This document shows, one piece after another, positions 1-11,106 of a stretch of 22,726 nt of DNA. The DNA is from a virus (Duplodnaviria > Heunggongvirae > Uroviricota > Caudoviricetes), in IMG/VR virus record IMGVR_UViG_2548877009_000014. One strand, 5' to 3'. A program made the position numbers and the translations under genes. Position 1 is the stretch's first letter. Every line of letters begins with the position of its first letter. The notes below the pieces were generated by a model, which saw only the letters and a program-made list of their open reading frames with translations, did no database searches and was not told the DNA's origin.

Positions 1-1158
1 ATGCTCACCGTTAAGCAGATTGAAGCAGCAAAGCCGAAAGAAAAACCATACCGCCTTCTCGATGGTAATGGTCTGTACCTTTATGTGCCTGTATCCGGGA
101 AAAAGGTATGGCAGCTTCGCTACAAGATTGGCGGTAAGGAGAAAATCCTGACCGTCGGAAAATATCCGCTTATGACTTTGCAGGAGGCAAGGGGTAAAGC
201 ATGGACTGCGAGGAAAGATATCTCGGTTGGCATCGATCCGGTAAAGGCGAAAAAGGCTTCGTCTAACAACAATTCCTTTAGTGCGATTTACAAGGAATGG
301 TACGATCACAAGAAGCAAGTATGGTCAGTAGGGTATGCGACTGAACTTGCAAAAATGTTTGATGACGACATTTTACCCATCATCGGCAGCCTTGAAATTC
401 AGGATATTGAGCCGATGCAACTGCTGGAAGTAATCCGCAGATTTGAAGATCGCGGTGCAATGGAGCGAGCCAACAAAGCCCGCAGAAGATGCGGCGAGGT
501 TTTCCGTTACGCTATTGTCACCGGAAGGGCTAAATATAACCCGGCACCTGACCTTGCAGACGCCATGAAAGGATACCGCAAGAAGAACTTCCCGTTTTTA
601 CCTGCAGACCAGATCCCGGCATTCAACAAAGCACTTGCAACATTTTCAGGAAGTATCGTATCGCTCATTGCGACAAAAGTTTTACGCTACACAGCCCTAA
701 GAACGAAAGAGCTTCGTTCCATGCTATGGAAGAACGTCGATTTTGAAAACAGGATTATCACCATCGACGCCAGTGTGATGAAGGGTCGCAAAATTCATGT
801 GGTTCCTATGTCAGACCAGGTAGTTGAACTTCTCACTACGCTAAGCTCTATCACCAAACCAGTATCAGAGTTTGTTTTTGCCGGGCGCAACGATAAGAAA
901 AAGCCAATCTGCGAGAACGCGGTGCTACTTGTGATCAAACAAATCGGCTATGAGGGTCTGGAAAGCGGTCACGGATTCAGGCATGAATTCAGCACGATTA
1001 TGAACGAGCACGAATGGCCTGCAGACGCCATTGAAATGCAACTGGCACATGCCAACGGCGGATCTGTGCGCGGGATTTACAACCATGCTCAGTATCTCGA
1101 TAAGCGCAGAGAAATGATGCAATGGTGGGCGGATTGGATCGATGAAAAGGTGGTGTGA
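1..1158 (+). CDS. int: Tyrosine integrase, P4/CP4-57 type; probably complete, but the start coincides with the window edge
   Basis: 385-aa ORF. N-terminus MLTVKQIEAAKPKEKPYRLLDGNGLYLYV matches the conserved N-terminal arm-binding motif of P4-family integrases; C-terminal region (HGFRHEFSTIMNE ... VRGIYNHAQY) is consistent with a tyrosine-recombinase catalytic domain. TGA at 1156-1158. Confidence 0.9.
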   Translation: MLTVKQIEAAKPKEKPYRLLDGNGLYLYVPVSGKKVWQLRYKIGGKEKILTVGKYPLMTLQEARGKAWTARKDISVGIDPVKAKKASSNNNSFSAIYKEWYDHKKQVWSVGYATELAKMFDDDILPIIGSLEIQDIEPMQLLEVIRRFEDRGAMERANKARRRCGEVFRYAIVTGRAKYNPAPDLADAMKGYRKKNFPFLPADQIPAFNKALATFSGSIVSLIATKVLRYTALRTKELRSMLWKNVDFENRIITIDASVMKGRKIHVVPMSDQVVELLTTLSSITKPVSEFVFAGRNDKKKPICENAVLLVIKQIGYEGLESGHGFRHEFSTIMNEHEWPADAIEMQLAHANGGSVRGIYNHAQYLDKRREMMQWWADWIDEKVV

Positions 1159-1351: not shown

Positions 1352-1939
1352 ATGTTGGTAGATAAGATATTGCACAAAACTGGATTATTTGACTTTCTGG
1401 ACAAAATTTTAATAACCCGTCCTTTCGCTATTGTATCCAATAACTGCTGGGGCTATAGACTATATAAAAATATAGGACTTGAATATAATACTCCCTTTAT
1501 CGGCCTGTACATCACAGCATCTGATTTTGTTGAAATGTGTATTAATTTGGAGCATTTTTTATCAAGAGACATTGTTGAAAGCGATTTCATTAATACAGAG
1601 CATAATTTCCCCGTTGCATTTGTGGATGGAGTAAAAATATACTTTATGCATTATAACTCAAGGGCAGAAGCCATGGATAAATGGAATAGAAGAATAAAAA
1701 GACTTCAATCTTTTATATCATCACATGGCCTTGATAGAGTTGTTTTTAAAATGTGTGATAGAGATGGAAGTTACATGGATGTAATGAAATTTAATGAGTT
1801 AAAAATAAAAAGAACGATATCTTTCACCTCGAAAGAAAACAAAGGACTCGTTGAGAGCAATGGTAATATTTACCCGGGAGATGTATTGTTCAACTTCAGA
1901 CACAGATATTATCTCAAGTATATCAAAACATTTAGATAA
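1352..1939 (+). CDS. Hypothetical cytoplasmic protein on an AT-rich moron; tentatively DUF1919-like (SNNCWG motif), a family associated with polysaccharide biosynthesis loci
   Basis: 195-aa ORF with AGGA ribosome-binding site about 7 nt upstream of the ATG. Markedly AT-rich versus flanking phage genes. No transmembrane segment evident. Motifs IVSNNCWGYRLY, NTPFIGLY and HYNSRAEAMDKWNRR recall DUF1919 from memory. Confidence 0.75.
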   Translation: MLVDKILHKTGLFDFLDKILITRPFAIVSNNCWGYRLYKNIGLEYNTPFIGLYITASDFVEMCINLEHFLSRDIVESDFINTEHNFPVAFVDGVKIYFMHYNSRAEAMDKWNRRIKRLQSFISSHGLDRVVFKMCDRDGSYMDVMKFNELKIKRTISFTSKENKGLVESNGNIYPGDVLFNFRHRYYLKYIKTFR

Positions 1940-2518: not shown

Positions 2519-3442
2519 TCACCAATAAATAATTACAATCCCGCTATGACCAGCACCAGTAACTCCGCCAGTCTTTTTCGTTGCCAACCCAGCGCCACCA
2601 CCGCCAGGACCTTTTGCATTACTGCCAACATTCCCCGCCGAATCTAAAACCTGTCCATGCCCGCCAGGACCACCGCCACTACCTCCGACAGCCGAATCAG
2701 TGCCTGCTATCATTGATGCACCAGGAGAGCCTGGGCCAAGAGACGTATTTATCTGCCCCCCCACACCTTCTCCCCCCACTCCTCCGGATATCTGACCTCC
2801 ACCATATCCGCCTGTTGCCGAGAGATATGTGCCAAAACTACTGGTGCCACCAGGATTTCCGTTTCTTGCTGACGTATTTTGACCTTTTCCACCACTGCCT
2901 ACAGTGATTGTGACGGTGTCAATACCTGTTAAGTCAATGACGGACTCGCTCACACCACCGCCGCCACCGCCGCCGCCACCGGCAGCGTTCGTTGAGCTTA
3001 TCGACGGGTAACCGCCAGACCCGCCACCGCCGATAACCTTCACCCTGACGCGTCGGCCCTTTTTCACTATGTCAGGAACATTCCAGGTGCTGACGCCTGC
3101 ATTATCAAATACAGCGCAATTTTGAGCGCCAAATGTGGCTTCTCCCAAACCAAGGTTTTCGAGAGCCGTTTGCACAGTGCCATCCGATTTGATATCGCCA
3201 AACGGATTCTTGCGGCTTAACAGCAGCGCGCGAAGTGCGGTAAGCAACTGATCGTGCCGCCCCTTCTCCAGGCTGGCACCGGATGCCTCCACCACGCTGC
3301 AAAGCTCCTCCTGCAACATATCAAAGTAGTCATCATCCAGATCGGTGGCAGGTGTGCCAGTCTGGGGGTTACCACGGGTAAAACCGTTCTTACCCGCGCC
3401 GAACTTATCCTTCTGCGCGGTTTTCGTGTCTATACGATGCAT
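2519..3442 (-). CDS. Tail fibre protein with conserved N-terminal baseplate-attachment domain and glycine-rich C-terminal region; unusually short
   Basis: 307-aa ORF. N-terminus [47 protein letters not shown] is a conserved enterobacterial prophage tail-fibre N-domain; the remainder is Gly-rich low complexity. GGAG ribosome-binding site 8 nt upstream. Position is last in the Mu-like baseplate operon. Confidence 0.8.
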
Positions 3443-7118: not shown

Positions 7119-8443
7119 TGCACTGGCACCTTCAGAGGGATCACCGGCACAAAGCCGGGATGCGTAATGGCATTACGCCGGATAATGTCCGCGTCACGCG
7201 CCGCGTTATCAAACCAGGTCGCCGCCAGCACCAGTGCGGGTAAAACCTCATCCGGCGTGCGCTGAATGATCCGTGCAGACTGTTCAAGGCGCGTGTTGAT
7301 ATCCGCATTCAGATCTGCTTTCACCCGGCGCAGCGCCAGAAACAGCGCATCACTGGTTGTGCGGGACAACTCCTTATCAATTGCCGTATTCAGTGTGTAG
7401 CGAATGTCAGTCAGTTCTTCCCACGTCGGCAGGTCAACCGTGCTTTTCACCGCCGGTGCATTGTTCAGTGCCGGATGCGTGACGGAAGGCCAGCCAGTGC
7501 TCTGCGCGGGTGTTGTTGCCTGCCCCACTGCGGCATTCTGCATCACCGCGGAAGTTGTTGGCGCAGGCAATCGGGTGACGGCATACGCCGCTTCGCTGAT
7601 TGCGGTCGTACGAAGGATGCTGGCAACCACGTTACGCTGCTGCGTCGCCGTAGCGGTGGTTTTACTGTCCGTTTTCCAGACGCCGCGCGGTTGCAGATCG
7701 CTGCCGAGGCTGACACCGGAAAGCGTTTTGATCATGGTGACCAGGTCGCTGGCGTTACCATAAAGGCGTTTCCCGGTACGCCACATTTTCTGCACCTGTT
7801 CAACGAAATTTTTGCCTGACGATGGCGGCGGCAGAAGTACCGAGATATCCCCCTGCAACAGCCTGGCGGCATCCGATACGGCAGAATCCACCACTTTCAT
7901 CGCATCAGAAACATACCCAAGCATTGTGCCGGCATTACCGACGACGTCGTTCTGCACAAAATCTGCCACGCCATCGATACTGAAACCACTGAAACTTTCA
8001 CTGATGCAGTCATCCAGTGCAGAACAGGATGACATCAGCGTCTGCGCCGTCGCCGCACCTGATGTGGGGTAAGAGAGTTCTCCCGCTTCGACAAACTTCA
8101 GGTCAAAGCGGACAATACGCCCTTCACTTTTCGATGTGCTGACCCGAACTTCCCCGTCAACACAGACTTTCAGCTCACCATATGTCGGGTGGACAAGCGT
8201 GCCGGGACCGGGTTTATTCAGCGCTTCAATCAGGCGATCGCGCTGGTCAAAGCAGTCATCTCCCACCACATAAGCTGTGATGGACGGGCGGAAAGTGACT
8301 TTTCCCAGATCTTCGGTATAGGGTTTGTCGCGGTTCGGATATTCGTGTGTTTCCACACGACGGCCGGTTCCCGCACTTTCTTCTTCAACCTTAAACGGCA
8401 CACCTCGAAATGACGCATCCTGAAGCCTGTCTTTCCACGTCAT
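7115..8443 (-). CDS. DNA circulation protein (Mu gp43 / N-like)
   Basis: The ORF track begins at 8485, but the start is more likely the ATG at 8443 (MTWKDRLQDASFRGVPFKVEEE...) with GGAG 5 nt upstream. The 8444-8485 extension overlaps a terminator hairpin. N-terminus is typical of the DNA-circulation family. Confidence 0.85.
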   Translation of the reverse strand: MTWKDRLQDASFRGVPFKVEEESAGTGRRVETHEYPNRDKPYTEDLGKVTFRPSITAYVVGDDCFDQRDRLIEALNKPGPGTLVHPTYGELKVCVDGEVRVSTSKSEGRIVRFDLKFVEAGELSYPTSGAATAQTLMSSCSALDDCISESFSGFSIDGVADFVQNDVVGNAGTMLGYVSDAMKVVDSAVSDAARLLQGDISVLLPPPSSGKNFVEQVQKMWRTGKRLYGNASDLVTMIKTLSGVSLGSDLQPRGVWKTDSKTTATATQQRNVVASILRTTAISEAAYAVTRLPAPTTSAVMQNAAVGQATTPAQSTGWPSVTHPALNNAPAVKSTVDLPTWEELTDIRYTLNTAIDKELSRTTSDALFLALRRVKADLNADINTRLEQSARIIQRTPDEVLPALVLAATWFDNAARDADIIRRNAITHPGFVPVIPLKVPVQ

Positions 8444-8503: not shown

Positions 8504-10339
8504 TTACCTGCCAAAGCGCGTATAGCCAACATCATGGCTGACATCAAAACCGCTGGTTCGCGTTTCCATAACCCGCATACCCGGAGGCGAATTCACAAAA
8601 GAGACCTTGATCTCACCATCAACTTTTGGCGCAGAAGCTTTGTTAATCATGAAGGGATTCGGGCCTGTGGCATCGGAGGCGTTGTTTGACTGAGCCAGAT
8701 CTACCGCCGGATAAGGAGTGTATCCCCGTGCCGGTATTCCCGTCCCATAAGCATCATAAGCACCCGCGCCCCACTGCGCCGAGTTAATGGTATCGACCGT
8801 GTCACCGGAACTGTCGGTAAACCATTCAATAATCGGCTTCAGCTTGTCCCACATATCCTGAAACCACTTAACAACCGGCCCCCAGTTATTGATCACCATC
8901 CCCAGCGGCGACCAGGCAAAAACTTTCTTAAGGAGTTCCCAGCCAGCCTCAAAATAAGGACCAATGGTTTCCCAGAGTTTCTTAAAATAAGGTCCGACAA
9001 CATCCCAGTTAGTGATAATTAATCCCGCAGCCAGGGCTATCGCCGTCGCAATCATGCCAATCGGCGTCATCGACATGATCCTGCTGACAATACTGATGGC
9101 ACTGCCCACGCCCATCAATCCCAGCTTCAGAATCGCAAGACCGGCAGCAAGCCCGACGACGCCGCGAATAACCCGGGGATTTTCATCCGCAAACTTTGTG
9201 AATTTTTCCCCTAACTCCCCCAGCCATTGCGTGATATTTTTAGCGTCACCAGAAAATGCGCCGCCAATAGCTGCAAGACCGTTAGTTGCGGTCCCCGTCA
9301 TTGCCTCCCACAGGTTGGACAGCGTACCAAGCTGAGCCTGAACACGTTTATTCAGGCTGGCCTGTTTATTCATCTTCTGCTGGATCTGATCGTAGCCATC
9401 CTTTCCTTTATCGATCAGGGCATTGACCACCTGAAGGGTTTCGGCATCATCACCAAATATTGCCTTAAGTACGCCTGTTCGCTTAACGTCGGTCAGTTTT
9501 CGCAACTTTGCCAGTTGCCTGAACATGTTATCAAGACCGCCAAAACTCCCTTTGCCATCAGTAAAATCGAGTTGTATCCCGAGTTTCTGGCGGGCCATGA
9601 CTTTATTGACGTCCCTAATTTTCTTAACGCTTAATCCGGACTGGATAACTTTTCGCAGGGCATTACCTGCCGACTCCCCGTTCATCCCCATCTGATCCAT
9701 CATGACACTGATGGGGGCAAGACTCTGTGCAGCCTGAAGACCGTCCTTATTCACCATCTTCAGAACAGAGCTGGTTTTAGTGAAGAATGACAGCATGTTG
9801 GTGTCGTCAACGCCCAGATAAAACGCCTTCTGAATTGTGTCGAACAGCCCCATCATGTCTTCTGAGGCCGTTCCGGTAGCATCCTGCATCTTTGCTGCAA
9901 ACTCGGCAGCCGCTTCCGGTGTTTTTTTCAGTTGTACCGCAAGATAAGCTGTCGCTTTACCCACACCACCCAGAATGTTTTCTGCCGGGATCCCCTGACG
10001 CACCAGCATCTGCATCATGTTCTGGAAATCAGCCGTTGTACCGGGTAGCTGGTTACCCAGGCCAATAGCCAGTTTATTGATGTCCTGAAAGCTCTTTCCA
10101 ACCTCGCCGTTCGCATCCATCATGGCGACTTTCAGCCCGGTAGCGGCGTTTTCCTGATCGGCATAAGATTTCAGGGAAAGCGTCAGCCCCGCTGCCAATC
10201 CGCCACCAAGCGCCAGCCCACCCTGTGACGCTTCTTCCGCCTGGCGTTTAAATCCCCGGATTTTCTTTTGCATTTTCGACAGCGCGGGAGAAAGCCTGTC
10301 GACACCGGTGATCAACGCCTTAAGCTCAAATTCAGCCAT
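8504..10339 (-). CDS. Tail tape measure protein
   Basis: 611-aa ORF with alanine/glycine-rich and hydrophobic central segments; positioned after the tail chaperone pair as in all long-tailed phages. Confidence 0.9.
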   Translation of the reverse strand: MAEFELKALITGVDRLSPALSKMQKKIRGFKRQAEEASQGGLALGGGLAAGLTLSLKSYADQENAATGLKVAMMDANGEVGKSFQDINKLAIGLGNQLPGTTADFQNMMQMLVRQGIPAENILGGVGKATAYLAVQLKKTPEAAAEFAAKMQDATGTASEDMMGLFDTIQKAFYLGVDDTNMLSFFTKTSSVLKMVNKDGLQAAQSLAPISVMMDQMGMNGESAGNALRKVIQSGLSVKKIRDVNKVMARQKLGIQLDFTDGKGSFGGLDNMFRQLAKLRKLTDVKRTGVLKAIFGDDAETLQVVNALIDKGKDGYDQIQQKMNKQASLNKRVQAQLGTLSNLWEAMTGTATNGLAAIGGAFSGDAKNITQWLGELGEKFTKFADENPRVIRGVVGLAAGLAILKLGLMGVGSAISIVSRIMSMTPIGMIATAIALAAGLIITNWDVVGPYFKKLWETIGPYFEAGWELLKKVFAWSPLGMVINNWGPVVKWFQDMWDKLKPIIEWFTDSSGDTVDTINSAQWGAGAYDAYGTGIPARGYTPYPAVDLAQSNNASDATGPNPFMINKASAPKVDGEIKVSFVNSPPGMRVMETRTSGFDVSHDVGYTRFGR

Positions 10340-10750
10340 GTGTGCGTTTCTCCTGCTCTATCCTGTTTGCCTGACTGACCAGCAAGGGAATTTCACTGAT
10401 CGGCATATTCAGCAATTCGAAGGGATTAATGCGCCAGTAGCTGGCGCAGTCAAAGAAGCGATCAGTGAGGTATTCAGCCGTCAGGCCTGGAGGAAAAAAC
10501 CAGCCACAAGCCACGCCGCTGCATTCAGGTCTGCCGGAGACATCTGGTCGACAGAGCTTTGCGGCACTTTCGCCAGCCGCACAATGTATTTCGACACCAC
10601 ATGCGCCAGAAGTCTGACGGACTCATCCTGATTCATCTGGTAGGGATACCCCAGCTCGCGGACATCCTTCCCGGTGGGTTCATCAAACTCCAGTACGGAG
10701 AGTGTCTCACCATGAGCGATAATCGGTTTCTTTAACTCAAGCTCTTTCAT
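10332..10750 (-). CDS. Tail assembly chaperone frameshift fusion product (GT / E+E' analogue) made by a -1 programmed ribosomal frameshift
   Basis: The -1 frame ORF (10332..10514) overlaps the 3' end of the chaperone ORF. Zero-frame codons GGT TTT TTC (G F F) contain the heptamer T TTT TTC; the -1 frame continues ...FFPPGLTAEYL... and stops at 10332, overlapping the tape-measure start. Confidence 0.6.
10481..10750 (-). CDS. Tail assembly chaperone (lambda G / P2 E / Mu gp41 analogue), zero-frame product
   Basis: 89-aa ORF between tube and tape measure genes; TAATG overlap with the tube gene; ends 12 nt after a T_TTT_TTC slippery heptamer. Confidence 0.8.
   Translation of the reverse strand: MKELELKKPIIAHGETLSVLEFDEPTGKDVRELGYPYQMNQDESVRLLAHVVSKYIVRLAKVPQSSVDQMSPADLNAAAWLVAGFFLQA
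10493..10499 (-). other. Slippery heptanucleotide T_TTT_TTC for -1 programmed frameshifting
   Basis: Read directly from the sequence; fits the X_XXY_YYZ rule in the zero frame of the chaperone gene. Confidence 0.6.
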
Positions 10751-11106
10751 TACTGGTAATCCCCTTCTTCACCGTGGAACTCAAGATCAACCGTGCCTTC
10801 TTCGGCATTATGGTTCGCTTCGCCGTGCAGCCAGGCAGACGACAGTACATAGACCTGACCGTTCGCCAGCTCGGCAGTGATGGTCATCTCATCAGACGAG
10901 GTGATTTTGCTCACCGGAAAATTCTTCGGCACCTTGAAGGTTCCTTTGACATAAGGCGCGCGGTGAGTTTCCTTGCGGTCCACTGAACCATCCAGACCGA
11001 TGATGTCATCGTTAACCGTCCTGTTCATGGGCACCTCAATGCCGCCGGTCAGCGATAGCTGCTGACCGTCAATTTTGAAATAACAGGTTCCCCCGATACG
11101 GGCCAT
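10750..11106 (-). CDS. Tail tube protein (Mu gp40 / M-like)
   Basis: 118-aa ORF directly after the sheath gene with TAATG overlap; size and position characteristic of contractile-tail tube proteins. Confidence 0.85.
   Translation of the reverse strand: MARIGGTCYFKIDGQQLSLTGGIEVPMNRTVNDDIIGLDGSVDRKETHRAPYVKGTFKVPKNFPVSKITSSDEMTITAELANGQVYVLSSAWLHGEANHNAEEGTVDLEFHGEEGDYQ

What the first reader, a model, noticed from the sequence alone, without database searches (positions are those of the whole stretch)
10332..10750. Programmed -1 ribosomal frameshift in the tail assembly chaperone (T_TTT_TTC slippery site)
The chaperone ORF ends 12 nt after a canonical X_XXY_YYZ heptamer (at 10493-10499 on the - strand), and the -1 frame stays open for a further 53 codons, ending where the tape-measure gene starts. 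This is the conserved G/GT (lambda) or E/E+E' (P2) arrangement and supports a functional tail module. The ORF track shows only two separate short ORFs.
Basis: partly seen in the sequence, partly recalled or inferred. Interest (0 to 1): 0.45.

Follow-up and report, generated by a model that had tools for sequence, protein, structure and literature searches.

The report
Tail chaperone programmed -1 frameshift site
This prophage's small tail-assembly chaperone gene carries a conserved slippery T_TTT_TTC site that lets a fraction of ribosomes slip back one base and make a longer second protein, the same well-known trick as phage P2's E/E+E' and lambda's G/GT, so it is real but ordinary, though public annotations miss it.

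Summary
On the minus strand, an 89-aa chaperone ORF (10750-10481, Pfam Phage_TAC_7) contains T_TTT_TTC (10499-10493) in the X_XXY_YYZ register, 9 nt before its stop. The -1 frame then runs 53 codons to a TGA (10334-10332) that overlaps the tape-measure ATG.

The window is an SfV/SfI/SfII-type prophage with a Mu-type contractile tail module.

Comparative evidence is strong. 12 phages and 26 of 29 species-level genomic relatives, down to about 30% identity, keep an in-register heptamer at the same codon with the -1 frame open to the tape measure. The extension has dN/dS of 0.07-0.36 only in the -1 frame. 17 of 25 lineages have no possible independent start. The fused 139-aa product aligns full-length with P2 E+E' (95% probability), with the junction at the same column.

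No conserved stimulatory structure lies 5-9 nt downstream, as in P2. Mu itself differs: no heptamer, and only its -2/+1 frame is open.

Verdict: a genuine programmed -1 frameshift and a new (unannotated) member of a well-known kind. Expression, shift efficiency, and ribosomal versus transcriptional slippage remain untested.

The parts
10481..10750 (-). 0-frame tail assembly chaperone ORF (89 aa; the short, presumably abundant product, analogous to P2 gpE and lambda gpG)
   Evidence: ORF list. Pfam PF10109 Phage_TAC_7, E=2.4e-15, 56.7 bits against a cut-off of 25. phrog_166 'tail protein', 4e-23. Annotated 'phage tail assembly protein' by PGAP.
10493..10499 (-). Slippery heptamer T_TTT_TTC in the X_XXY_YYZ register (P-site TTT, A-site TTC)
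   Evidence: Sequence. Invariant in 12 diverged SfV-clade sequences, and replaced by T_TTT_TTT, T_TTT_TTG or G_GGT_TTT in other clades at the same codon. The base before the Phe-Phe codons is T in 24 of 25 lineages across 7 different amino acids, and G in the one lineage with G_GGT_TTT.
10332..10493 (-). -1 frame extension (53 codons, PPGLTAEYL...EKRTHG, plus TGA at 10334-10332); an E'-like C-terminal domain of the 139-aa trans-frame product, join(10750..10493, 10493..10332)
   Evidence: phrog_32181, 2.3e-41. dN/dS 0.07-0.36 in this frame, against about 1-2.5 with stops in the other frames. hhalign to P2 E' gives E=2.3e-5, and the full-length fused product against P2 E+E' gives 95% probability, E=2.9e-8.
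10512..10514 (-). GTG that makes the -1 ORF appear as a separate 60-aa ORF. It is not a conserved start and has no SD-like motif.
   Evidence: ORF list. Census: 17 of 25 lineages have no ATG, GTG or TTG in the -1 frame up to 15 codons past the junction, and none of the 8 candidates has an SD-like 4-mer. Annotated as a separate hypothetical protein only in ON470584.
8504..10339 (-). Tape measure protein gene. Its ATG (10339-10337) overlaps the stop of the -1 frame (ATGGCTGA).
   Evidence: PF10145 PhageMin_Tail, 6e-27. phrog_28 and phrog_17727, tape measure. The ATGGCTGA/ATGGCTAA overlap is conserved in most enterobacterial relatives. P2 has the same 8-nt overlap between E' and T.
10750..11106 (-). 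Tail tube gene immediately upstream (its stop overlaps the chaperone's start)
   Evidence: PF10618 Tail_tube, 2.4e-33. phrog_185.
10430..10448 (-). Perfect 8-bp hairpin UGCGCCAG-CUA-CUGGCGCA, 44 nt downstream of the heptamer, inside the extension (codons C-A-S-Y-W-R). Role unknown; too far away to be a canonical stimulator.
   Evidence: the stem is kept in 8-10 of 10 SfV-clade sequences, with no real covariation. The Ala GCC and Tyr TAC codons are invariant in 12 sequences, while other Ala columns use 4 codons. Absent from the SfIV/ST64B clade.

Best explanation
This is a programmed -1 ribosomal frameshift in the tail assembly chaperone gene of an SfV-type prophage with a Mu-type contractile tail.

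Most ribosomes translate the 89-aa chaperone and stop at TGA 10483-10481. A minority slip back one base, with tRNA-Phe on TTT in the P site and tRNA-Phe on TTC in the A site (T_TTT_TTC, 10499-10493); both tRNAs re-pair with UUU. Those ribosomes continue for 53 codons in the -1 frame and terminate on the tape-measure start codon. The result is a 139-aa protein (...VAGFF-PPGLTAEYL...) that shares the chaperone's N-terminal domain and adds an E'-like C-terminal domain.

By analogy with lambda G/GT and P2 E/E+E', the two proteins are made in a fixed ratio. Both would act on the tape measure during tail assembly, with the extension recruiting the tube/tail subunit, and neither would end up in the virion.

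Shown here: the anatomy, its conservation, selection on the -1 frame, and homology to P2 E+E'.

Inferred: that the shift occurs, that it is ribosomal, its efficiency, and the assembly role.
For: 1. **Anatomy** is exactly as described.
2. **Setting:** a Phage_TAC_7 chaperone between tube and tape measure, within a complete terminase-to-tail-fibre module.
3. **tblastn** with the fused 139-aa product finds two-frame matches in phages down to 39% identity.
4. **Twelve phages from five clades** carry T_TTT_TTC, T_TTT_TTT or T_TTT_TTG in register at the same aligned codon. In each, the -1 frame is open for 50-63 codons to the tape-measure start. The 0-frame stop wanders (9, 30, 48 or 63 nt downstream), and the +1 frame is closed or unconserved.
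5. **Genome census:** 26 of 29 species-level genomic loci keep the arrangement. The 3 exceptions are disrupted copies in insect endosymbionts.
6. **Near-identical contigs:** 79 of 80 keep the exact site.
7. **Selection:** the extension has dN/dS 0.07-0.36 with no stops in the -1 frame only.
8. **Nucleotide-level constraint:** the codon before the slip site ends in T in 24 of 25 lineages although it encodes G, R, N, S, V, P or D. The first slip codon ends in T in 25 of 25. Neighbouring synonymous sites vary freely.
9. **No conserved independent start** for the -1 ORF: 17 of 25 lineages have none.
10. **Homology to P2:** the full-length fused product against P2 E+E' gives probability 95%, E=2.9e-8, with the junctions aligned. 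P2's record annotates a -1 translational frameshift at TTTTTTG and shows the same 8-nt overlap with its tape-measure gene.
11. **Published motif data:** U_UU.U_UU.Y and R_RR.U_UU.Y are among the shift-prone motif classes in E. coli (PMC4066793).
Against: - No expression data exist. No public record examined annotates a joined CDS.
- No conserved stimulator was found: no SD-like motif upstream and no structure 5-9 nt downstream.
- In a reporter, naked UUUUUUC gave only 0.121% shifting against a background of about 0.055% (PMC4066793 supplementary Table S3). Efficiency could therefore be very low unless the native context helps. For comparison, lambda's own GGGAAAG gives only 0.277% in the same naked reporter, and P2's UUUUUUG gives 0.118%.
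- One near-identical contig (L078) has G_TTT_TTT, an imperfect P-site match.
- Phage IPK keeps the -1 extension without any heptamer.
Confidence: 0.88

Rival explanations
1. Transcriptional slippage. RNA polymerase occasionally adds one extra U on the T6 run (T7 in the SfIV/ST64B clade), producing a subpopulation of mRNAs in which normal translation reads straight into the extension. The same two proteins would result, but the recoding would happen at the RNA level.
For: The site is a homopolymeric T run in nearly all lineages. UUUUUUU is under-represented in all three frames in E. coli genes, which the authors attribute partly to transcriptional slippage (PMC4066793). Only a small percentage of long product is needed, by analogy with lambda's roughly 30:1 ratio (PMC5009743). 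L078 keeps T6 but breaks the canonical P-site match. The naked heptamer is a weak ribosomal shifter in reporters.
Against: T6 is shorter than the runs of about 9 or more known to support substantial RNAP slippage in bacteria (my own knowledge of the field, not tested here). The Acetobacteraceae relative L119 uses G_GGT_TTT with only four Ts, which is a good ribosomal motif class but a poor polymerase slippage site. The run is always in the ribosomal register, and the last heptamer base follows A-site rules (C, T or G). The homologous P2 site is annotated as a translational frameshift.
Confidence: 0.07
2. Two independent genes. The 60-aa -1 ORF (10514-10332) would be translated from its own GTG as a separate small protein, as annotated in phage vB_EcoM-689R6, with no recoding.
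For: A GTG lies 7 codons upstream of the junction. One GenBank record annotates it as a separate hypothetical protein. PHROGs holds it as a family of its own, phrog_32181.
Against: There is no SD-like motif before the GTG. 17 of 25 lineages have no ATG, GTG or TTG anywhere from the last upstream -1-frame stop to 15 codons past the junction, and in several the -1 frame opens only 7-12 codons before the heptamer. This model also fails to explain the invariant heptamer and the constraint on the preceding third base.
Confidence: 0.02
3. No function. The open -1 frame and the T run would be coincidental, or a remnant of a frameshift mutation (pseudogene or sequencing error), and only the 89-aa protein would matter.
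For: T6 runs are common in the window (23 observed, 17 expected). A 53-codon open stretch is not very rare by chance. PGAP annotates nothing there.
Against: The identical arrangement occurs in about 900 E. coli genomes and in 12 isolated phages. It is conserved across genera with saturated synonymous divergence. The extension is under purifying selection only in the -1 frame and is homologous to P2 E'.
Confidence: 0.01

Closest known systems
Phage P2 E / E+E' (programmed -1 frameshift at T_TTT_TTG in the FETUD tail operon)
   Same: The N-terminal domain belongs to the same Pfam family (PF10109; P2 E 47.5 bits, window 56.7 bits). Both have a T-run heptamer in register right after the G-F-[FL] codons at the end of that domain. 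The geometry matches: 85 + 57 = 142 aa in P2 against 86 + 53 = 139 aa here. The -1 stop overlaps the tape-measure ATG by 8 nt in both. Neither has a downstream stimulatory structure. Full-length hhalign gives probability 95%, E=2.9e-8, with the junctions aligned. Both are contractile-tail phages.
   Different: The last heptamer base differs: C here (A-site Phe) against G in P2 (A-site Leu). The extension is too diverged to hit Pfam Phage_P2_GpE. The surrounding tail module is Mu-type (gp43-48 homologues, DUF2635), not P2-type. The 0-frame stop lies 9 nt after the heptamer here, against 17 nt in P2.
Phage lambda G / GT (G_GGA_AAG, about 30:1 ratio, chaperone for the tape measure gpH)
   Same: The gene position is the same, between the major tail protein and the tape measure. 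Both have a short product plus a -1 trans-frame product sharing the N terminus, and neither requires a downstream structure. The presumed logic is the same: a fixed ratio of two chaperone forms (PMC5009743).
   Different: No detectable sequence similarity. The heptamer differs. Lambda has a non-contractile tail. The function of the extension (binding the major tail protein gpV) has been shown for lambda only.
Phage Mu gp41 (reported -2 frameshift, Xu et al. 2004, as cited in PMC5009743 and PMC2628397)
   Same: The tail module type and gene order are the same. The N-domain is weakly related (PF10109 at 23.8 bits, below the cut-off; its own family is PF23746). Mu's +1/-2-frame extension scores above all 300 shuffles, and above Mu's other two frames, against the extension profile built here (score 21.1 against a maximum of 16.5).
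   Different: Mu has no X_XXY_YYZ heptamer. Its -1 frame closes after 12 codons, and only its +1/-2 frame reaches the tape measure. In the window the +1 frame closes after 2 codons. The direction and kind of shift therefore differ.
E. coli dnaX and IS3/IS911-type -1 frameshift sites
   Same: Tandem slippage on an X_XXY_YYZ heptamer by E. coli ribosomes.
   Different: Those sites use an upstream SD-like stimulator and/or a hairpin or pseudoknot 5-9 nt downstream. Neither is present or conserved here.

Membership tests
Tail assembly chaperone with programmed frameshift (lambda G/GT, P2 E/E+E' class; Xu et al. 2004) | Gene lies between the major tail/tube gene and the tape measure gene | tested here: met
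   Tube 10750-11106, chaperone 10481-10750, tape measure 8504-10339.
Tail assembly chaperone with programmed frameshift (lambda G/GT, P2 E/E+E' class; Xu et al. 2004) | A second ORF overlaps the 3' end of the chaperone in the -1 frame, lacks its own conserved start, and ends at the tape-measure start | tested here: met
   17 of 25 lineages have no start codon. The 8-nt overlap ATGGCTGA is present.
Tail assembly chaperone with programmed frameshift (lambda G/GT, P2 E/E+E' class; Xu et al. 2004) | Slippery X_XXY_YYZ heptamer in the 0-frame register inside the overlap | tested here: met
   T_TTT_TTC at 10499-10493.
Tail assembly chaperone with programmed frameshift (lambda G/GT, P2 E/E+E' class; Xu et al. 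2004) | Heptamer and frame arrangement conserved in diverged homologues; extension under purifying selection in the shifted frame | tested here: met
   12 of 12 phages, 26 of 29 genomes and 79 of 80 near-identical contigs. dN/dS 0.07-0.36. Third-base constraint.
Tail assembly chaperone with programmed frameshift (lambda G/GT, P2 E/E+E' class; Xu et al. 2004) | Two proteins sharing an N terminus are actually made in a fixed ratio; both are needed for tail assembly and absent from virions | not testable with these tools
   Requires proteomics, reporter assays and genetics.
Pfam PF10109 Phage_TAC_7 (P2 gpE / Mu gp41 type chaperone domain) | HMM score above the gathering threshold | tested here: met
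   56.7 bits against 25, residues 4-86 covering profile positions 2-78 of 79. The domain ends exactly at the slip site.
Pfam PF06528 Phage_P2_GpE (the E' extension domain) | HMM score above the gathering threshold on the -1 extension | tested here: not met
   No hit even at E<=10 for the window's fused product. The Bordetella relative scores 13.2 bits against 23. Profile comparison nevertheless supports distant homology: E=2.3e-5 for the extension alone, and 0 of 300 shuffles reach the score.
Mu-type -2 frameshift chaperone (gp41) | +1/-2 frame open from the chaperone's end to the tape measure; no -1 heptamer | tested here: not met
   The window's +1 frame closes 2 codons past the stop. Mu's is open for 43 codons.
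Stimulated -1 PRF sites (dnaX, IS3 family) | SD-like element 6-17 nt upstream and/or stable hairpin or pseudoknot 5-9 nt downstream | tested here: not met
   No SD-like 4-mer. Only a 3-4 bp stem near +6. The 63-nt downstream fold has z=-2.1, driven by a hairpin at +45. Nothing is conserved across clades.
Programmed transcriptional slippage sites | Long homopolymer run (about 9 or more) conserved irrespective of reading register | tested here: not met
   The run is T6 here, T7 in the SfIV clade and T4 in L119, and is always in the ribosomal register. The run-length criterion comes from my own knowledge, not from a tool result.

The most novel reading that the evidence does not exclude
The naked heptamer is a weak shifter in reporters (0.12%), so something else may tune the ratio. 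One candidate is the perfect 8-bp GC hairpin 44 nt downstream (10448-10430). Its synonymous sites are frozen across the SfV clade, and only -1-frame ribosomes traverse it. It could be a non-canonical long-spacer stimulator, or a switch coupling trans-frame translation to tape-measure initiation.

Separately, the family appears to reach one homologous E'-like domain through different recoding events: a -1 shift in SfV and P2, a -2 shift in Mu, and a heptamer-less 7-nt window next to the stop in phage IPK. That would make it a natural system for studying how recoding signals are swapped during evolution.
Probability: 0.12. Interest if true: 0.45.

Novelty: new member of a known kind. Interest (0 to 1): 0.15.

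Why it matters
The value is mainly in annotation. The 139-aa trans-frame chaperone is missing from RefSeq/PGAP and from the GenBank records of SfV, SfI, SfII, SfIV, ST64B, phiP27 and relatives. The element is present in about 1100 of 5426 complete E. coli genomes (about 900 with the full stretch), so a likely essential tail gene product is systematically unannotated or mislabelled as a separate hypothetical protein.

It also shows that the P2-type E/E+E' recoding site extends into Mu-type tail modules, while Mu itself uses a different shift. That is useful for prophage-intactness calls and for tailocin engineering: the Pseudomonas SfV-like tail cluster DVM-2008 has the same site.

It does not change what is understood about frameshifting.

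Tried and rejected
- **NCBIfam:** no model hits either part or the fused product, even at E<=1.
- **PDB sequence search** with the family profile: only noise, E>=0.1.
- **Viral-contig scan:** returned only relatives at least 99% identical. These served as a population check, not for divergence.
- **Genome-contig scan with the 10-sequence alignment:** A 5-sequence alignment worked.
- **Primary papers:** Xu et al. 2004 and the SfV genome paper are not held, so I could not check whether SfV is already listed there. Searches for SfV, ST64B or serotype-converting phages together with frameshift found no description of this site.
- **Sharma et al. 2014 E. coli screen:** lists five prophage clusters, none of which is this chaperone.
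- **Canonical downstream stimulator:** searched for and rejected.
- **Upstream SD stimulator:** rejected.
- **Full-length hhalign against the Mu fused product:** inconclusive (E=0.044). The extension-only comparison was better.
Full report
**What is in the sequence**

All features are on the minus strand. The 89-aa ORF 10750-10481 ends ...GCT GGT TTT TTC CTC CAG GCC TGA. T_TTT_TTC (10499-10493) therefore sits in the X_XXY_YYZ register: the P-site codon is TTT and the A-site codon is TTC. Three sense codons and the stop follow.

The -1 frame read from the last C gives PPGLTAEYL... for 53 codons. It ends at TGA 10334-10332, which overlaps the ATG (10339-10337) of a 611-aa ORF. The +1 frame closes after 2 codons.

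**Context**

- The 89-aa protein is a Pfam Phage_TAC_7 chaperone: 56.7 bits against a cut-off of 25. The domain ends exactly at the slip site.
- Its neighbours are the tail sheath, tail tube, tape measure, and homologues of Mu gp43, gpP/gp44, gp45, gp46, gp47 (Baseplate_J) and gp48. Further along lie a tail fibre, tail terminator, capsid, portal, large terminase and an integrase.
- The DNA is 98-99% identical to Shigella phages SfV, SfI and SfII, and 100% identical to prophages in several E. coli chromosomes. Related DNA occurs in 1100 of 5426 complete E. coli genomes.
- None of the records inspected annotates a joined CDS. PGAP leaves the stretch empty, and one phage record calls the -1 ORF a separate hypothetical protein.

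**Is it more than chance?**

A T6 run alone is not unusual: 23 occur in the window against about 17 expected. In-frame heptamers are rare, with 3 in 2320 tail-gene codons. The decisive evidence is comparative.

- **Two-frame matches.** tblastn with the fused 139-aa product gives two-frame matches in phages down to 39% identity.
- **Phage survey.** I examined EPP-1, AH07, SfIV, F1055, ST64B, phiP27, BgVeeders33, the Pseudomonas tail cluster DVM-2008, PG1 and a Bordetella phage. Each has T_TTT_TTC, T_TTT_TTT or T_TTT_TTG in register at the same aligned codon (...FF or ...FL). In each, the -1 frame is open for 50-63 codons to the tape-measure start. The 0-frame stop moves between clades (9, 30, 48 or 63 nt downstream), and the fused products are 129-150 aa.
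- **Genome survey.** In a species-dereplicated genome collection, 26 of 29 loci keep the arrangement, including one with G_GGT_TTT. The three exceptions are disrupted copies in insect endosymbionts.
- **Near-identical contigs.** 79 of 80 viral contigs keep the exact site.
- **Selection.** The extension has dN/dS 0.07-0.36 and no stops in the -1 frame. In the other two frames the values are about 0.9-2.5, with stops.
- **Nucleotide-level constraint.** The base preceding the Phe-Phe codons is T in 24 of 25 lineages, although that codon encodes seven different amino acids. It is G in the lineage whose heptamer requires G. The first slip codon ends in T in 25 of 25. Neighbouring four-fold sites use all bases.
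- **Independent initiation.** 17 of 25 lineages have no ATG, GTG or TTG in the -1 frame upstream of the conserved core. The window's GTG (10514-10512) has no SD-like motif.

**Relation to known systems**

*P2.* Its record annotates E (91 aa) and E+E' (142 aa) with a -1 translational frameshift at TTTTTTG, and E' overlaps the tape-measure gene T by 8 nt. The family profile aligns with P2 E+E' over 122 columns (probability 95%, E=2.9e-8), and the junctions coincide: VAGFF|PP against VVGFL|FA. The extension alone matches P2 E' at E=2.3e-5, and no shuffle out of 300 reaches that score. The Pfam E' model itself does not reach the window's extension. This site is therefore the positional and sequence homologue of the P2 site, placed in a Mu-type tail module.

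*Mu.* Mu has no heptamer. Its -1 frame closes after 12 codons, and its +1/-2 frame is open for 43 codons. This agrees with the published -2 shift (PMC5009743; PMC2628397). Mu's -2-frame extension nevertheless scores above all 300 shuffles, and above Mu's other two frames, against the extension profile. That suggests the same C-terminal domain is reached by a different shift.

**Mechanism and stimulators**

None is there.

- The 93-nt downstream fold has z=-1.3.
- The clade consensus has only a 3-bp stem near the site.
- Folds of 63 nt from eleven lineages give z from +1.2 to -3.6, with no shared structure. Only BgVeeders33 has a strong stem at canonical spacing, and P2 has none (z=+0.1). The absence of structure in P2 matches the published statement cited in PMC3091744.
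- No SD-like element lies upstream.

Published E. coli reporter data put U_UU.U_UU.Y in the shift-prone class. The naked efficiencies are nonetheless low: UUUUUUC 0.121%, UUUUUUU 0.326%, UUUUUUG 0.118%, and lambda's GGGAAAG 0.277%, against a background of about 0.055%. The real efficiency here is unknown and may depend on native context.

A perfect 8-bp hairpin at +45 to +63 (10448-10430) is conserved, with frozen synonymous sites, in the SfV clade only. It is too distant to be a canonical stimulator, and its role is unexplained.

**Rivals**

- *Transcriptional slippage* on the T run cannot be excluded from sequence alone, since only a small percentage of long product is needed. It is disfavoured by the short run, the strict ribosomal register, and the G_GGT_TTT variant with only four Ts.
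- *Independent initiation* and *a non-functional coincidence* are contradicted.
- ST64B's published tail-gene 'frameshift mutation' concerns sb21/sb22, not this site.

**Verdict**

This is a genuine, conserved, P2-type programmed -1 frameshift in a tail assembly chaperone. It is well understood as a class and is unannotated for this widespread prophage family. I could not read Xu et al. 2004, so it is possible that SfV is already listed there.

Novelty: new member of a known kind. Interest: low (0.15). The side observations are modestly interesting: the -1 versus -2 routes to a homologous domain, the distal hairpin, and the heptamer-less IPK.

Noticed in passing
window 10430-10448 (- strand): A perfect 8-bp GC-rich hairpin, UGCGCCAG-CUA-CUGGCGCA, lies 44 nt downstream of the heptamer inside the -1 extension. 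It is conserved in the SfV clade, where the Ala GCC and Tyr TAC codons are invariant in 12 diverged sequences. It is absent from the SfIV/ST64B clade. Only -1-frame ribosomes would traverse it. Its role is unknown.
   Followed up: partly
L015 (phage Mu NC_000929) 2950-3115: Mu's +1/-2-frame extension after gp41 (…ILKSGPEWALSLPLSRFFRHCQQAKTL…) scores 21.1 against the profile of the -1 extensions. The maximum over 300 shuffles is 16.5, and Mu's other two frames score 8.2 and 10.7. A homologous C-terminal domain therefore seems to be reached by a -2 shift in Mu and a -1 shift in the SfV/P2 lineages.
   Followed up: partly
L011 (Paraburkholderia phage IPK, PV588664, UNVERIFIED) 689-1200: This homologous chaperone has GGC TTC TTC at the slip position, so it has no slippery heptamer. 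The conserved extension is still in the -1 frame, but that frame opens only 7 nt before the 0-frame TAA. Any shift would have to occur within GAG GGC GCG TAA, or the record contains a sequencing error.
   Followed up: no
L078 (IMGVR_UViG_2585427757_000001) 1147-1160: One of 80 near-identical contigs carries two 0-frame-synonymous changes (GGT->GGG and TTC->TTT), giving G_TTT_TTT. This is an imperfect P-site re-pairing variant that still keeps a T6 run.
   Followed up: no
L010 (Burkholderia phage BgVeeders33) about 863-912: Unlike the other lineages, this relative has a strong stem (-26.8 kcal/mol, z=-3.6) starting 8 nt after its T_TTT_TTC. This may be a lineage-specific canonical stimulator.
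   Followed up: no
L121, L123, L124 (Ca. Pantoea bathycoeliae; Arsenophonus endosymbiont of Aleurodicus): The chaperone/extension region in these insect endosymbionts is disrupted: frames are broken and the heptamer is lost or out of context. This is consistent with prophage decay in reduced genomes.
   Followed up: no
window 10332-10339 (- strand); L125 (P2) 851-858: The -1 frame stop overlaps the tape-measure start by 8 nt: ATGGCTGA here and ATGAGTAA in P2. The overlap is conserved in most enterobacterial relatives, which suggests termination-reinitiation coupling for -1-frame ribosomes. An AGGAG sequence lies about 10 nt upstream of the tape-measure ATG.
   Followed up: no
window 1-1158 (+) and 1352-1939 (+): A tyrosine integrase (Arm-DNA-bind_3, Phage_int_M and Phage_integrase domains) sits at the window edge. 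It is followed by a DUF1919 protein placed between the integrase and the tail-fibre gene, a position where SfV-type phages carry lysogenic-conversion cargo.
   Followed up: no
window 7805-7811 and 8300-8306 (- strand): Two other in-frame X_XXY_YYZ heptamers (A_AAT_TTC and G_GGA_AAA) lie inside the DNA-circulation (Mu gp43-like) gene. They were not examined for alternative-frame ORFs or conservation.
   Followed up: no
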